Source: Escherichia coli (GTDB lineage: Bacteria > Pseudomonadota > Gammaproteobacteria > Enterobacterales > Enterobacteriaceae). From it: DNA of 64,000 bases. Positions 37,801-43,800 of the stretch are shown in pieces (positions within the stretch are counted from its first letter, which is position 1; each line of letters starts with the position of its first letter). Where the stretch lies: assembly GCF_013122565.1 (NCBI RefSeq), contig NZ_CP053258.1; one strand, given 5' to 3'. A program made the position numbers.

Positions 37801-40800
37801 GCATCTGCAACCTTTTCAGGTCATCAGCGATTTTTTGGTAATCGTGATGATGAAAGACATCAGGAACAAAAACGCTATGATGAAATCATAAGAATTATTG
37901 ATGTAGAAAAGGTGTTCAGTACAGTTCAACGAAGGGAAATCTTTTATAAATATGAGCAACTTTATAATGCGCTGATGGCTCGACCGAGCTTTACCAAACT
38001 GAGTCGAAAACAAGTACAAAAGCAGTATGCTCTGCATATCATCCCCAGACTAATCGCACTTGACATATATAAAACGTATAAAATTCAAAATAAAAACAGT
38101 TTTTATCATCATATACATCTGTTTCTGAAAGAGGACTATTGCCCATGTGGAGCAGATAAAAAAAAAGGAACTTACTCTGCAGTACGGCAGTATCTCAAAA
38201 ACCTTATAAGAAATTTAAAATTATCTTATCCAGAAAACTTGCTTCCTGTTTATCGCGTAATTGAAAACATCCGTGAGAGTTCATCACAGAAAGCAGGTGC
38301 GCTGAATGCTCCCATACAAGAGAGCATTGAGGCTTACGAAGCCATTGTTACACCAGAAGAGATTAAATACATCAGAACTGGTCTGGAAGAATTAAAAACC
38401 GCACATTATTCACTGACCGTACTCCTTAACCTTGAACGTCTATTCTCTGTTGTTAATATAATCTCGTCATATTACAGAAAGTATCTTAACGATGGAATAA
38501 GGCCAAATAATATCTCGTCTATGCTATGCAGGTATCTTTATGAACCCCAAAGTAATGACATCTTCTGTCACAGTAACATCATTAATTCAATTGTGGAGTA
38601 CTACTACGTGCGGGCAATAAAACCCCTATCACTGAATGTAAGCAATGATGTTATGCTGTGCGTGGATAAATTAAAAGACATTGTATTTAATTTTAATAAC
38701 AAAACCATTATTTCTGAAGCGGATTTAATAAATATTGCAGTTGTATTAAAAAAAGAACCTGACAATCATTGTCTGATGCCATATCTTGAACTGCATATGG
38801 TGATACATTTAATCAGCCATGGAGAAACTGACGAAGCTTATGAGATGCTTAAACGGGTTTCTCTGGATGATTTACCTTCAGGATATCTGACAGCTGCTTT
38901 TTTAATTCTCCGTACTGCATTACGAATAAAGAGAGAAAGGAAAAAAATCAAAAATGGTGTTTTCTCCTCGGATATAACAGCAATACTGGAAAGTCAGGGG
39001 ATCTATACTGACTATGTCCCTGTCATTAAGGACTATACAAACAACGGCATTGATGGGTCTCTTACGAAAAATTCATTTTTATCTGGCACCATTTTACCAG
39101 ATGCCAACAATCTGACCATCATGCGTATAGTAAGAATGTATAATAATATGGTCAGAAGAATAAGTCACTGGAATGACCTTTATCATGACGGTGTTTTTCC
39201 GGAGTCTGTTTATGGGCTCCTTGATAAAGTTGATGCCATTCTTGGTAAGATACTCAATATTATCTTTTTTGAAAATATCACATCCAGACGGAATTTAGCC
39301 TTCATCCTGAAAAATAAAAAAATCCTTACCACAAGTGAGCTGAATGATAACCTCATTGGTATACTGATTAACTGTCCACTTATAACGTGCGTACAAAACC
39401 TCGAAATTTTAATACAATACCTTCGCTGTCCGGGAGAGGAGTTAAGAAATATAATTATTTCAATTGACAGGAAATCATGGAATTTGATATGCGGAGCCCT
39501 GAAAATCCTGGAGGAAGACAGAACAGGACGAGCAGAAATAACACAGAAAGATGGGAAATAATTGCATATTTCCACCTCTCTCCCGGCTACACTGGCTACG
39601 TGTAGCCAGTGTAGCCGGGAGTCACACCCTGAAAGTAACAATGCGAAAACCAGGAGCTTGTCCCAACAGGATTTTATTCCAGATGATTAGGCCGCTGGTA
39701 ATATACAGCAGAGCCTTATAACTTCAGTTCTTTTCCCATCAGCTCAGTATCTGACGAAAACAATGAATCCAGCTATAAACCCTACCTACTATCCACAGGC
39801 GAGCTTTCCTCCTTCTGGTATCTTCCCCTGTTTACTCGACTGAATATGAGGTTCACAGCATCGCTGCCTCCAGATAATTGCTCAACCATTCGTCATCAGC
39901 AACCTTTTCACTTTGAAAACAACATCGATAACCCCCTGCATATATTATATACTGAAATTATTACTCTTTATTTAGAAAATATAGAAAAAATGAACCTTGA
40001 AAGTTATAATTCGCAAATAAAATTAACCTAATCTTAAACCGCGGCATCAACTTTAACATTTCACAGCCAAAGATAATACTTATGCAAAACATTACGCTGG
40101 GATGCATTATGGAAGATAATTTTTGATTTCATTCGCGATAAAAACAATACTGTAAAAATTTGAATACGCAAAAAATAAATATGTAAAAGCAGATGATATT
40201 TCCATTTATGTCGAGCGCCAGCGTTATGCATAGAAGACTTATAAAAAGTAACGGTATTTTCATTGACGTTCTGTAACACAGATATAAAATAACAGGTATT
40301 CATAAAGAATAAATCATTAATACAGCTATTGCCCCAATATCTATACGACGTGTAATTATTATCAGGCAGCGCTAGCAAGGCGGACATTACAAGCACAAAG
40401 AAATAATATATCTTCGGTTTTCTACAATCACCGTAAATCGTCCCTCTTCCACTTTAAGGCCTGAAAAAATATGGCGCCAACATCATACAAACGAAGAAAT
40501 TAAATATTCTACACAACCACAGCGAATTTTCTCATTTATGACATTACTCTAATTTTATTTCTCCACTAAGCATATGCGTCAAACAATAAATACCCTCCAG
40601 CCACAGAGTCTAAACTGATATACAATATCGCTGTTTGCTTTATCGCCCCTCTTCCAATATAGAACGCATACCATTAAATCATTTACCTCTTTCCAGATAC
40701 AAGTCATGATTATACGTCCCATTGAGTTCTTATTCTCATGCAGAAATTGTGACTCAATAAATGCAGAATTAAAGCCTGTTAATATTCATGGTATAGCCAG

Positions 40801-43800
40801 ATTTTCTCTCTGTCTTCTTTTGTCTCCGAACAACTCATATACCATTATCCTGATTAATCTTCGCGTACTCATACGACGTCTTCCCCCTTCAACTATACCC
40901 TATTGAAATGATTTTATTGCTTTTGTTCAGACAACAAAAAAATGCGAGCTCTGACACAACAGTAAAAACCAACCGTTAAAGTATCTCTGTGTTTCCACAC
41001 TCTCCCTTGCTGAGAGGGAATTCTGAGCCCGGTCACTTGAGCTTGATTCACCATCTTTTTGGATTACTGGGAAGTTGTGACATCACATAATCCGCCCACG
41101 CCTGCATCATCGGTATATGCTGATCCAGTAGATCAGTCCGGTGATATGCTGCCTCAACCTTATTTTTCAGCGTGTGGGCAAGCGCCCTTTCCGCCAAATC
41201 CCTGTTCACTACACCAGTCCCTGAATGTTGAACGAAAACCATGTGCTGTTGCCACCCGTCCGGGTATATCACTGATGGCATTCTTTTTACGCAGAAAACT
41301 CGTCAACACCATATCTGAAAGGATCTGCTGCTTTCTGGGAGAAGGAAACACCAGTTCATCATGCAAACCACGTATATTTTCCAGAACGTGAATGGCCTGC
41401 CGGGATAAAGGAATACGATGCTGTATCCTAGCTTTCATTCTTTCTGCTGGTATCGTCCATATCCGCTTATGAAAATCAATTTCAGCCCAGCGCATTCCCC
41501 TGGCTTCGCCCGAACGGGTTGCTGTAAGTATCACCATTAATAACAGTGCTCGGGTAACATTATAAGGTTCATCTGTATACACGCTTGTCGCCACAAACAG
41601 CGGTAATTGCCTCCAGGGCATTGCCGGCTGATGTTCATCACGTCCTCTTGATTGCTGTGGAAGCAAATGTTCAACCACATCAACAGGATTTGCCACACAA
41701 AAACCATGCGCCCAGCCCCACTGCATAACAACATGAATACGCTGTTTAATCCGGCTTGCCGTTTCTGATAAGGTCAACCAGATTGGACGCAGTGTCTCTG
41801 CCACGTCCGCAGCCGTAATCTCATTCAGCGTTTTTGCTCCCAATTGAGGAAACACGTAATTTTCAAGCGTCGACAACCACTGCCTGACATGCTTTGGATT
41901 TTCCCATCCCGGTGACAATTCTGCATGTACACGCATGGCTGCATCGGCAAATGTTGGGATAACAACTTTTTCAGCTTCAGCCTTTTTGATCTCCAGAGGA
42001 TCATCACCTGCAGCAAGTTGCTCTCGCATTATCCGGGCAGTACGTGCAGCTTCGGCAATACTGACCTCAGGGTAAGTTCCCAATCCAGCATTACGCCTTT
42101 TTTGTGTCACCGGACTTACATAACGAAAAACCCATTTACCCCGCCCCTTTACTGAAGAAGGATGAAGGGTCAGCCCTGTAATTCCCCCATGAGGCAATGG
42201 TTTGTCATCAGGTTTGATATGCCTTGCTTTTGTATCAGTCAATACTGCCATACGCTAATTCCTGTTTCTCTAGTATGCCATCCAGTATGCCCTTATTCTC
42301 ACACTTCACTAAGCATACATTAGATAATATCGGACAGAAAAAATTTGTAATGTATTGTTTATAATTAAATTATACAACGCCTCTGGATTAAGTCAGATTT
42401 ATTTCAGGCGGTCCCCCTCACCGCCATATTTAAATAAATATCCTCCGGCATAGCCGGAGGTTTTTCAAATGCGCCTATAAGGCTCTCTTACCAGCCGCGC
42501 CCTAACAGGCGCACACGATCTGACATTTGCATCCAACTTCGTTACTTACGGCCCGTAAACGGGCTGCCCGGATAGGGAATCGATAACTGCTCTCCCATTT
42601 CATCCTCTTCAAGCTGGTGCTTTATGTAATCCTGTATCTTCGCCGTGTTCTTACCCACCGTATCGACGTAATACCCTCTGCACCAGAACTCCCTGTTCCT
42701 GTATTTGAATTTCAAATCCCCAAACTGCTCATAAAGCATCAGACTGCTTTTCCCTTTCAGATATCCCATAAAGCCGGATACGCTCATTTTGGGCGGGATC
42801 TCCACAAGCATATGGATATGATCTGCACAGCATTCAGCTTCAAGAATCCGTACGCTTTTCCACTCACACAGCTTTCTCAAAATACTGCCTATTGCTCTAC
42901 GCTTCTCTCTGTAGAACACTTGTCTTCGGTATTTTGGCGCAAAAACTATGTGATATTTACAGTTCCATCGGGTGTGCGCTAAGCTCTTTTCGTTCCCCAT
43001 TGGGACCCCCTTTTGATTTCTTGTTTGACACTTGCAGTTGCCAGACCGCAAGGTGTTTTAACAAATCAAAAGGGGTTTTAATAACTGGCTCAAAGCTGAA
43101 AGCTTTCCGGAACCCCCAGTCTAGCTGGGGGTTTTCTGTGCACAAGAAGAGCCCGTACGAAAGTACGGGCTTTTTTTTCGTATATTGCACACACCGGGTG
43201 CCCCCGCCCACGTCTGTTAGGGCGAGGGGAAATCGTACACATCAACTGTCTGATTGCTCAGTCAACAATCAAAATGCGCAAGAGAGTACAGAACATATAT
43301 GCGCTATCTGGTCACTTCCTGTAACTTCCTCACTTATTAAAATGCCCCCAACGGAAATACATGTCACATGCCATCATAAAATCGTTATGCCAGAGGAACC
43401 GACAATGGAAAAAATAGTAAATTAAGCACGGTACATAGCAGAGTAAAAAATAGGCTTCAAACCAAATCCGCCATTCCACAAGCGTTGCCAATACCGACAC
43501 CAGCGTAATCCACATCACTTCAATAACCAGCAATATGAATAACCGAAGCCAAAGCGGCTTGGCAAAAAAGGTCGACAACGCATTTTCACTGGAGAAAAAC
43601 AGATCGATTTCCTGCAAAAAAAGCCTGCCCAGAAAAGCGTACCGCTTGGAGAAGCGCAGAAAAAACAGATTAATCGCCAACACTACGCCACAAAGAATGA
43701 GCAATGCAATTATCGATTTAAACGTTAACCACTGCCCCTCTGTCACAAAAGAGTTACTGTTACGCAACGGGCTGATAGTAAGCAGGTTAACAACCGTTGA

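What the first reader, a model, noticed from the sequence alone, without database searches (positions are those of the whole stretch)
39622..41047. About 1.4 kb AT-rich ORF-poor tract between the orphan gene and the integrase
Seen in sequence: only short low-complexity ORFs (61-111 aa, Ile/Leu/Phe/Asn-rich) that look like random AT-rich frames. Inference: the tract could be a decayed gene, a silenced regulatory region, or encode a small RNA.
Basis: inference. Interest (0 to 1): 0.35.

Follow-up and report, generated by a model that had tools for sequence, protein, structure and literature searches.

The report
Degenerate junk DNA at island junction
The 1.4 kb AT-rich gap is ordinary decayed DNA: a broken insertion-sequence fragment plus about 1.1 kb of fast-evolving sequence with no detectable gene, RNA or conserved element. 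It lies where two differently derived parts of a genomic island were joined.

Summary
Window 39622-41047 has 36.4% GC against 46.5% for the window, and no start-to-stop ORF exceeds 111 aa.

The tract is a composite:
- 39622-~39641 is the end of the conserved 3' flank of the upstream 616-aa gene. That flank includes a perfect 20-bp hairpin at 39580-39621.
- 39650-39905 is the 3'-terminal ~255 bp of an IS5-family insertion sequence. Its transposase reads on the minus strand and carries stops and frameshifts. It is cut off exactly where GC falls from 45% to 34%.
- 39906-41047 is an 1142-bp core with no known relatives.

The core has no protein homologue in any frame and no Rfam family. It shows no unusual RNA folding, no codon periodicity, and no excess of promoter-like or terminator-like sites. 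Its DNA was found in only three of 5426 complete E. coli genomes plus one draft assembly. Among those copies it changes 3-4 times faster than the neighbouring intact genes and collects small indels.

Related islands lack the tract. The DNA to its left and right has different ancestry, so the tract marks a mosaic junction, probably made by IS activity.

One thing is unexplained: a 19-nt motif occurs three times, 205 and 236 bp apart. Interest is low.

The parts
37711..39561 (+). It is a backbone gene, always divergent from the AlpA-like gene in AlpA-DUF3987 islands.
   Evidence: ORF. No Pfam, PADLOC or PHROG hit. 72 homologues at 28-99% identity in E. coli, E. albertii, Salmonella, Klebsiella, Serratia, Cronobacter, Citrobacter, Proteus, Providencia and Morganella. 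The gene neighbourhood is conserved.
39580..39621 (.). Perfect 20-bp-stem, 2-nt-loop hairpin 19 nt after the stop codon of the 616-aa gene. The conserved 3' flank continues to about 39641.
   Evidence: Inverted repeat I1, 100% complementary. Folding z-scores -5 to -9. Two compensatory pair changes keep the palindrome perfect in homologues whose gene is about 74% identical. No T-run follows on either strand, and the terminator scan found nothing.
39650..39905 (-). Degenerate 3'-terminal fragment (about 255 of about 900 bp) of an IS5-family insertion sequence, comprising the terminal repeat and the last ~80 codons of the transposase. It is truncated at 39905.
   Evidence: blastn 67-74% identity to annotated IS5-family transposase genes. 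tblastn over 49 aa at 49-54% identity, E 2e-13 to 2e-14, with two in-frame stops and a frameshift. nhmmer E 2.7e-23 and 5.4e-23 against positions 8-274 of two IS copies. Alignment of the terminus. GC 45%.
39906..41047 (.). AT-rich core with no known relatives: 1142 bp, GC 34.3%, G 13.1%, GC skew -0.235. No recognisable gene or RNA. Probably the eroded remains of minus-strand cargo.
   Evidence: No hit in six-frame searches of Pfam, NCBIfam, PADLOC or PHROGs, of 5.8e9 proteins, or by phmmer of the three minus frames against 1.84e9 representatives (the only hit was its own ORF). No DNA match beyond 3 E. coli genomes and one draft. No codon periodicity. No RNA structure signal. Substitution rate 3-4 times that of flanking intact genes, with non-3n indels.
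40064..40453 (-). Longest open frame in the core: 130 codons stop to stop, containing the 111-aa GTG ORF at 40061-40396.
   Evidence: shuffles give mean 76, sd 18, and 1.2% reach 130. The frame is split into 79+76 codons in L001 and L018 and is 117 codons in L002. Marginal periodicity in this area only (p 0.04-0.07). The only database match is an identical 56-aa call from the same island in GCA_000225205.2.
40438..40456 (+). Copy 1 of the 19-nt motif TCNNCCCNCTTCNANTNTA
   Evidence: The triple occurs in 0 of 300 dinucleotide shuffles of the core.
40643..40661 (+). Copy 2 of the 19-nt motif, 205 nt after copy 1
40879..40897 (+). Copy 3 of the 19-nt motif, 236 nt after copy 2
   Evidence: The motif is absent from related islands. 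Its flanks are not significantly similar.
41048..42251 (-). serX-type P4-like tyrosine integrase. It is a pseudogene here because of an 11-bp deletion at 41195/41196.
   Evidence: Overlapping ORFs 41048-41281 and 41160-42251. The deletion is shared with PapRG-06-5 and the gene is intact in JNE23-001. Window 41076-42437 is 94% identical to the serX island of strain 2452, and the similarity stops at 41076.

Best explanation
The tract is non-functional filler at a mosaic junction inside a roughly 31-kb island inserted at the serX tRNA gene.

Shown:
- Left of the tract lies a backbone module: DUF3987/YfjI, an AlpA-like regulator, the 616-aa gene and its conserved hairpin. Its closest relatives are in islands at other sites.
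- Right of the tract lies a serX-type integrase and the island's right attachment site (attR).
- Between them are a truncated, degenerate end of an IS5-family insertion sequence and 1.14 kb of AT-rich DNA with no relatives.
- This DNA evolves faster than its neighbours and is missing from related islands.

Inferred:
- An IS5-family element inserted just after the hairpin.
- A later IS-associated deletion or rearrangement removed about two thirds of the IS together with adjoining DNA. That event brought the integrase end next to what remained.
- The remaining core is most likely the eroded remnant of one or more minus-strand cargo genes that have no sequenced relatives.
- The core now drifts neutrally. 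Like other AT-rich foreign DNA, it is probably coated by the silencing protein H-NS rather than doing anything specific.
For: Anatomy:
- The IS fragment spans 39650-39905.
- It ends where GC drops from 45% to 34%.
- The conserved flank of the 616-aa gene ends at about 39641.
- Integrase similarity to the common serX island starts at 41076.

Mosaicism:
- The window's DUF3987 and 616-aa proteins are only 28-29% identical to those of the common serX island, strain 2452.
- The 616-aa protein is 64-66% and 73% identical to its counterparts in islands of other lineages. These include thrW-site islands and L019-type islands.
- The module is inverted relative to the integrase.

The tract is absent elsewhere:
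- Strain 2452 has a 224-bp spacer after the integrase.
- L019-type islands carry a 507-aa gene plus a 1628-aa NERD-kinase-helicase gene after the hairpin, with no similarity to the core.
- nhmmer of the core against all related loci gave nothing.

No function signal:
- No protein homologue in any frame.
- No Rfam family.
- No folding signal.
- No codon periodicity, while both flanking genes show it.
- Promoter-like sites 5 against 6.0 expected, terminators 0.

Relaxed constraint:
- The core shows 1.0-1.4% substitutions against 0.13-0.54% in the YfjI and 616-aa genes (Fisher p 0.0006-0.005), plus 2-4 indels of 1-5 nt per pair.
- The longest ORF is broken in two of the four copies.

Former minus-strand sense:
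- The core's GC skew is -0.235, the same sign as the adjacent IS fragment (-0.276) and the integrase (-0.141). Both are minus-strand genes.
- Other AT-rich minus-strand genes of the island at 20-21 kb show -0.17 to -0.21.
Against: - No homologue identifies the core as a former gene. An ex-gene as diverged as the IS fragment (about 70% nt identity) should still be detectable if relatives were in the databases, so it was either a true orphan or never coded.
- The 19-nt motif occurs three times on one strand with 205/236-nt spacing and was not reproduced in 300 shuffles. All four copies examined (window, L001, L002, L018) keep it intact. Neutral junk does not predict this.
- The extreme strand skew persists without any codon periodicity.
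- Transcription, H-NS binding and the order of rearrangement events were not observed.
- The collection scans for other copies used a single exact 20-mer and would miss diverged copies.
Confidence: 0.75

Rival explanations
1. The core is a functional cis-acting region. The three copies of the 19-nt motif, with a weaker AT-rich box upstream of each, would be binding sites for an island protein (AlpA-like regulator, integrase or DUF3987 protein) in an AT-rich setting. This would resemble the repeated protein-binding sites of replication or partition regions, or a recombination-directionality site array.
For: - The triple motif occurs in 0 of 300 dinucleotide shuffles. Only 5% of shuffles give even one pair at 17/20 or better.
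- The 10-nt motif core occurs 3 times in 64 kb, all within 450 bp and on one strand, against 0.31 expected.
- All copies of the tract conserve it.
- A second short box lies upstream of each copy.
- The setting is AT-rich, next to genes for an AlpA-like regulator and a DUF3987 protein.
Against: - The motif is absent from every related island examined, including those whose 616-aa backbone protein is 64-73% identical to this window's.
- The pattern was derived from the data, so this is a post hoc test.
- Flanks of the copies are not significantly similar.
- Spacing of about 200 bp is unlike known sets of repeated protein-binding sites.
- Conservation among copies that are 99% identical is uninformative: about 0.6 changes are expected in 57 nt.
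- The surrounding sequence evolves fast and with indels.
- The tract is more than 1.3 kb from the att site.
Confidence: 0.06
2. The core expresses a lineage-restricted product. Candidates are one or more small orphan proteins, such as the 44-aa hydrophobic ORF at 40129-40263 (-), the 28-aa ORF at 40786-40872 (-) preceded by a purine-rich motif copy, or the 66-aa ORF at 40706-40906 (+). An unstructured small or antisense RNA is another possibility.
For: - Small ORFs exist.
- On the minus strand the motif reads GGAAGAGGG or GAAGGGGGA, which is Shine-Dalgarno-like. Reading the sequence directly, it lies 6-9 nt before an ATG or GTG at two of the three copies.
- Two promoter-like sites score 10/12.
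- One gene caller predicted 56-aa and 84-aa ORFs here in GCA_000225205.2.
Against: - NCBI's annotation pipeline (PGAP) annotates nothing here in the two complete genomes inspected.
- None of the ORFs has a homologue among 5.8e9 or 1.84e9 proteins.
- The 44-aa and 111-aa ORFs are frameshifted in at least one copy.
- There is no periodicity, no Rfam hit, no structured RNA and no terminator.
- Promoter-like sites are not above expectation.
Confidence: 0.07
3. The core never coded. It would be non-coding AT-rich DNA from an unknown donor, for example sequence that flanked the IS5-family element at a previous location and was carried in with it, or an old intergenic spacer. It would not be the remains of a gene.
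For: - No homologue in any frame.
- No codon periodicity anywhere in the core.
- It directly abuts a truncated IS.
Against: - The strand skew is strong and consistent, with the same sign and size as neighbouring minus-strand AT-rich genes.
- The minus-strand open frame is marginally long.
- In related islands this position holds minus-strand cargo genes of similar GC, 36%.
Confidence: 0.25

Closest known systems
IS5-family insertion sequences (copies annotated 'IS5 family transposase' in K. michiganensis plasmid NZ_CP048111.1, WP_202929161.1, and in E. coli KBN10P04869)
   Same: Window 39650-39905 aligns with the terminal ~270 nt of these elements. This covers the end sequence GAGCCTATCYCAATAGGA and the transposase C-terminus ...RWVVERTHSWMNRFRRVLTRWEKK...LIVWNKVLL.
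   Different: - Only about 28% of the element is present.
- It is 67-74% identical at the DNA level.
- It has in-frame stops, a frameshift and a lost stop codon.
- There is no second end and no catalytic part of the transposase.
- It is a dead fragment, not a mobile element.
Variable cargo slot next to the integrase in P4-like satellites (between psu and int; Rousset et al. 2022, PMC9122126)
   Same: The tract lies at an integrase-adjacent position where related elements carry different, AT-rich, often defence-like cargo. One example is the 1628-aa NERD-kinase-helicase gene plus a 507-aa gene in L019-type islands.
   Different: - This island has AlpA and DUF3987 genes, but no psu, sid or delta gene appears in the annotation of its close copy PapRG-06-5.
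- The slot here holds no intact gene.
- No PADLOC model matches any frame.
CP4-57-type cryptic prophage backbone of E. coli K-12 (intA, yfjH, alpA, yfjI; gene order recalled from memory)
   Same: The gene order matches: integrase, then a convergent gene, then a divergent AlpA-like regulator followed by a DUF3987/YfjI gene.
   Different: The E. coli-wide DNA searches returned no match to the core outside the three carrier genomes. The integrase-to-neighbour gap is about 1.5 kb here, while related islands have 0.2-0.3 kb.
Xenogeneic silencing of AT-rich horizontally acquired DNA by H-NS (established knowledge, not tested here)
   Same: The core has 34% GC in a 46.5% GC window (50-55% GC in the chromosomal stretches flanking the island), inside a horizontally acquired island.
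   Different: There is no enrichment of the H-NS high-affinity motif TCGATAAATT: one match with 2 or fewer mismatches in the tract, and 72 in the whole window against 86 expected. Binding was not measured.

Membership tests
IS5-family insertion sequence | Sequence similarity to an IS5-family transposase gene | tested here: met
   tblastn over 49 aa at 49-54% identity, E 2e-13 to 2e-14. nhmmer E 3e-23 over about 255 nt. The matching records are annotated as IS5 family transposase.
IS5-family insertion sequence | Complete element: intact transposase ORF with catalytic DDE region and two terminal inverted repeats | tested here: not met
   Only positions ~8-274 of a ~900-nt element align. No match to the N-terminal two thirds of the transposase. 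Two in-frame stops and a frameshift are present. It is a fragment, not a functional member.
Protein-coding gene (intact or recently decayed) | Homologues in protein or profile databases | tested here: not met
   Core 39906-41047: none in Pfam, NCBIfam, PADLOC or PHROGs, none in 5.8e9 proteins in six frames, and none in 1.84e9 representatives for the minus frames except its own ORF.
Protein-coding gene (intact or recently decayed) | Three-base periodicity, and an open frame conserved among copies | tested here: not met
   Periodicity p values are 0.04-1.0 across the core, against 0.000-0.04 in most windows of both flanking genes. The 130-codon frame is broken in L001 and L018. Indels are not multiples of three.
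Small RNA or cis-regulatory RNA | Match to a described RNA family | tested here: not met
   Rfam scan at E<=1 over 33000-47000 found nothing within 39622-41047. A 23.8-bit MIR6426 hit (E 0.72) on the hairpin is noise.
Small RNA or cis-regulatory RNA | Thermodynamically unusual structure, own promoter and terminator | tested here: not met
   120-nt windows on both strands: the lowest z inside the tract is -2.4, and the mean is -0.23. Promoter-like sites 5 against 6.0 expected, terminator-like sites 0.
Small RNA or cis-regulatory RNA | Transcription of a discrete product | not testable with these tools
   No expression data are available for a strain carrying this island.
Intrinsic (Rho-independent) terminator (for the hairpin 39580-39621) | GC-rich stem-loop followed by a T-run | tested here: not met
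   The stem is perfect and conserved with compensatory changes. No T-run follows on either strand, and the scan reports no terminator.
Replication origin or iteron region (a region of repeated protein-binding sites) | Clustered, regularly phased repeats conserved with the cognate initiator gene in related elements | tested here: not met
   Three motif copies are 205 and 236 nt apart. They are absent from all related AlpA-DUF3987 islands fetched. No extended repeat unit was found.
H-NS-silenced xenogeneic DNA | AT-richness well below the genome mean in acquired DNA | tested here: met
   Core GC is 34.3% against 46.5% for the window. It lies inside the serX island bounded by the tRNA and a 14-nt direct repeat.
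H-NS-silenced xenogeneic DNA | H-NS occupancy and transcriptional repression | not testable with these tools
   This needs ChIP and expression data. The high-affinity motif is not enriched.
Anti-phage defence cargo of integrase-adjacent hotspots | Recognisable defence gene(s) in the slot | tested here: not met
   No PADLOC match for any frame of the core or for the 616-aa protein. No similarity to the NERD-kinase-helicase or 507-aa cargo of L019-type islands.

The most novel reading that the evidence does not exclude
The AT-rich, strongly strand-skewed core may not be junk. It could be a lineage-restricted functional element: an array of three binding sites (the 19-nt motif at 40438, 40643 and 40879) for an island-encoded protein that controls integrase expression, excision or island maintenance. 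Alternatively it could be a cluster of tiny orphan ORFs that use the purine-rich motif as their ribosome-binding site.
Probability: 0.05. Interest if true: 0.35.

Novelty: already known. Interest (0 to 1): 0.08.

Why it matters
It matters little in itself. The result shows that a suspicious gap next to an integrase is a rearrangement scar (an IS fragment plus eroded DNA with no relatives), not a hidden gene or RNA, so it needs no annotation beyond an IS5-family pseudogene fragment.

Two by-products are mildly useful:
- The neighbouring 616-aa 'orphan' belongs to a conserved, uncharacterised backbone family of AlpA-DUF3987 islands across Enterobacterales.
- The conserved hairpin after that gene marks the point where variable cargo begins. 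Such cargo includes a NERD-kinase-helicase candidate defence operon in related islands.

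Tried and rejected
1. Decayed copy of a gene from homologous islands. tblastn of all ORFs of 40 aa or more from the related loci L003-L009, and of all ORFs of 50 aa or more from the window, L001, L002, L010 and L017, hit only the IS part, the hairpin flank and the integrase end. 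The 507-aa and 1628-aa cargo proteins of L019 do not match.

2. Full-length but diverged IS. nhmmer with two whole IS copies aligns only their first ~270 nt.

3. Degenerate ~220-bp tandem repeat built around the three motif copies. TRF finds only a 15-nt AT-rich repeat. Self-blast gives a best E of 0.18. Unit-against-unit local alignments give p 0.04-0.9. nhmmer with each unit does not find the others. Rejected as unsupported.

4. Donor search by exact 20-mer (CAGGCAGCGCTAGCAAGGCG) in viral, species-representative genome and metagenome collections. Only chance hits in GC-rich contigs were found. This would miss diverged copies.

5. H-NS nucleation motif enrichment: none.

6. Arm-type integrase sites. 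GTATGCCA repeats occur at both island ends, and none is seen in the tract sequence on either strand.

7. Type I toxin-like reading of the 44-aa hydrophobic ORF. There is no Rfam antitoxin or toxin RNA family, and the ORF is frameshifted by a 2-bp insertion in JNE23-001.

Full report
**Setting**

The window is an E. coli-type chromosome. A tRNA-Ser(GGA) gene (serX) lies at 10956-11043. Its last 14 nt, CCCCCTCACCGCCA, recur at 42412-42425. Together they bound a roughly 31-kb island.

The annotation of a nearly identical island in E. coli PapRG-06-5, with Pfam for the flanking genes, gives this gene order:
- a CbtA/YeeU toxin-antitoxin end next to serX;
- a fimbrial operon;
- several IS remnants;
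- a DUF3987/YfjI gene (35841-37367, minus);
- an AlpA-like regulator;
- the 616-aa gene (37711-39561, plus);
- the tract;
- a P4-type integrase (41048-42251, minus);
- attR.

An IS200 copy sits at 42438-43143, and ycdU follows it. The integrase here is a pseudogene. It has an 11-bp deletion at 41195/41196, shared with PapRG-06-5 and absent from JNE23-001.

**Observation**

The tract is real at the stated coordinates. It is 1426 bp with GC 36.4%, against 46.5% for the window. Its ORFs are 61, 111 and 66 aa, with several smaller ones. NCBI's annotation pipeline calls nothing here in the two complete genomes inspected.

'ORF-poor' is not more than chance. The longest open frame, 130 codons at 40064-40453 on the minus strand, is if anything slightly long for this composition (1.2% of shuffles reach it). 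It is broken in two of the four copies examined, L001 and L018.

**Anatomy**

The tract has three parts.

*(i) Conserved flank, 39622 to about 39641.* This is the tail of the conserved 3' flank of the 616-aa gene. The flank contains a perfect 20-bp hairpin at 39580-39621. The palindrome stays perfect through two compensatory pair changes in homologues whose gene is only about 74% identical. Similarity to all those homologues stops at about 39641.

*(ii) IS fragment, 39650-39905.* This is a dead fragment of an IS5-family insertion sequence.
- blastn gives 67-74% identity to annotated IS5-family transposase genes in about 200 E. coli genomes and 22 plasmids.
- tblastn aligns 49 C-terminal transposase residues at 49-54% identity (E about 1e-13) with two in-frame stops, plus a further frameshifted piece.
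- nhmmer with two whole IS copies aligns only their first ~270 of ~900 nt (E 3e-23).
- The fragment ends where GC falls from 45% to 34%.

*(iii) Core, 39906-41047.* This is 1142 bp with GC 34.3%.

**What the core is not**

*Not a recognisable gene.* Four kinds of protein search found nothing:
- six-frame translations with stops masked, against Pfam, NCBIfam, PADLOC and PHROGs;
- a concatenated six-frame query against 5.8 billion proteins, with no hit at E<=0.01;
- an exhaustive phmmer of the three minus frames against 1.84 billion representatives, which found only an identical 56-aa ORF call from the same island in assembly GCA_000225205.2;
- ORFs from the window and from related loci (L001-L010, L017) and the L019 cargo proteins, searched against the core.

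*No coding signal.* There is no three-base periodicity, while both flanking genes show it.

*Not an RNA element.*
- There is no Rfam family at E<=1.
- Outside the hairpin the lowest folding z-score is -2.4 and the mean is -0.23.
- Promoter-like sites number 5 against 6.0 expected, and there are no terminator-like sites.
- The H-NS high-affinity motif is not enriched.

**Distribution and evolution**

*Distribution.* The tract's DNA occurs in three of 5426 complete E. coli genomes at about 98% identity and in one draft assembly. It is absent from the plasmid and phage collections apart from the IS part. An exact 20-mer found only chance hits in the viral, species-representative and metagenome collections.

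*Rate of change among copies.*

| Segment | Substitutions between copies |
|---|---|
| Core | 1.0-1.4% |
| YfjI and 616-aa genes | 0.13-0.54% |

The difference is significant (Fisher p 0.0006-0.005). The core also carries 2-4 indels of 1-5 nt per pair, and the intact genes carry none. This is the pattern of unconstrained sequence.

**Comparison with homologous islands**

- In the common serX island (strain 2452), the integrase and attR flank are 94% identical to the window from 41076 onward. The integrase is followed after 224 bp by a convergent DUF3987 gene, and the tract is absent.
- That island's DUF3987 and 607-aa proteins are only 28-29% identical to the window's.
- The window's 616-aa protein instead has 64-73% identical relatives in islands at other sites. 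There the integrase lies on the other side of the module.
- In those islands the hairpin is followed by unrelated cargo. Examples are a YagK/YfjJ fragment with BRO-N genes, or a 507-aa gene plus a 1628-aa NERD-kinase-helicase gene.
- None of this cargo resembles the core.

The tract therefore sits exactly between two backbone pieces of different ancestry. One of its edges is a truncated IS.

**Explanation**

*Shown:* a composite of conserved flank, IS fragment and relative-less AT-rich DNA. It lacks any gene or RNA signature, is not conserved in related islands, and evolves under relaxed constraint.

*Inferred:* an IS5-family element inserted after the hairpin. A later IS-associated deletion or rearrangement then truncated it and joined the module to the serX-type integrase end. 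The core is what is left of earlier cargo.

The core's G/C asymmetry is the most extreme in the window (skew -0.235, G 13%). It has the same sign as the adjacent minus-strand IS fragment and integrase, and as other AT-rich minus-strand genes of the island. I therefore favour an eroded minus-strand gene over never-coding DNA, at roughly even odds. Being AT-rich foreign DNA it is probably bound by H-NS. That rests on established knowledge and was not tested.

**Unexplained residue**

A 19-nt motif, TCNNCCCNCTTCNANTNTA, occurs at 40438, 40643 and 40879 on the plus strand.
- None of 300 dinucleotide shuffles of the core gave such a triple.
- The 10-nt motif core occurs nowhere else in the window.
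- The pattern was defined post hoc, and its flanks are not significantly similar.
- It is absent from all related islands.
- The copies of the tract are too similar for its conservation to mean anything.

It keeps a small probability alive for a cis-element or ribosome-binding-site reading.

**Verdict**

This is ordinary degenerate island DNA at a mosaic junction. The 'decayed gene' reading is correct for the IS fragment and plausible but unprovable for the rest. The small-RNA and regulatory readings are unsupported. Interest is low.

Noticed in passing
window 39580-39621: A perfect 20-bp hairpin lies 19 nt after the 616-aa gene. It stays perfect through two compensatory pair changes in homologues about 74% identical, yet no T-run follows it. 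In JNE23-001 the 2-nt loop reads AC instead of GT, as if the whole palindrome had been inverted. It marks the exact point where the conserved backbone ends and variable cargo begins in several island lineages.
   Followed up: partly
window 37711-39561: The 'orphan' 616-aa protein is not an orphan. It has 72 relatives at 28-99% identity in at least ten genera of Enterobacterales. It always lies divergent from an AlpA-like gene followed by a DUF3987 gene. It has no Pfam, PADLOC or PHROG match, so it is an uncharacterised backbone gene of this island family.
   Followed up: partly
L019 7631-14037 (also L020-L022): In islands whose 614-aa protein is 73% identical to the window's 616-aa protein (one source names E. 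albertii), the slot after the hairpin holds a 1628-aa protein with NERD, protein kinase and UvrD/AAA helicase domains, plus a 507-aa protein with no domains. This looks like a candidate anti-phage system. In L022 the large gene is split into 482-aa and 1135-aa pieces.
   Followed up: no
window 41195/41196 (integrase 41048-42251, minus): The integrase is inactivated by an 11-bp deletion (CAAATCCCGCG in the intact JNE23-001 copy). The deletion is shared with PapRG-06-5, so the island is probably fixed in place in this genome.
   Followed up: yes
window 42438-43143: An IS200 copy with a full-length STnc490 (art200) antisense RNA match (140.8 bits, 43010-43133) is inserted 12 nt from the attR repeat. 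It is absent from the otherwise 99%-identical island in GCA_000225205.2.
   Followed up: partly
window 11100-11120 and 42272-42293: Paired GTATGCCA repeats lie just inside both island ends. They are probably arm-type integrase binding sites. The 14-nt att repeat is CCCCCTCACCGCCA (11030-11043 and 42412-42425). The integrase sits at the end far from the intact tRNA.
   Followed up: partly
window 40438-40456, 40643-40661, 40879-40897: Three same-strand copies of a 19-nt pyrimidine-rich motif are spaced 205 and 236 nt apart. No shuffle reproduced the triple. The motif is absent from related islands, and its meaning is unknown.
   Followed up: yes
window 20000-24000 and 29000-30000: Other stretches of the island are as AT-rich as the tract or more so (31-34% GC). 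At 20-21 kb the G/C skew is similarly negative. In PapRG-06-5 the 20-21 kb stretch holds annotated minus-strand hypothetical and winged-helix genes.
   Followed up: no
L002 15091-15227 and L017 6406-6542: RefSeq annotates an 'RtT sRNA' between attR and ycdU in serX islands that lack the IS200. The Rfam scan of the window at E<=1 did not report this family near the corresponding position.
   Followed up: no
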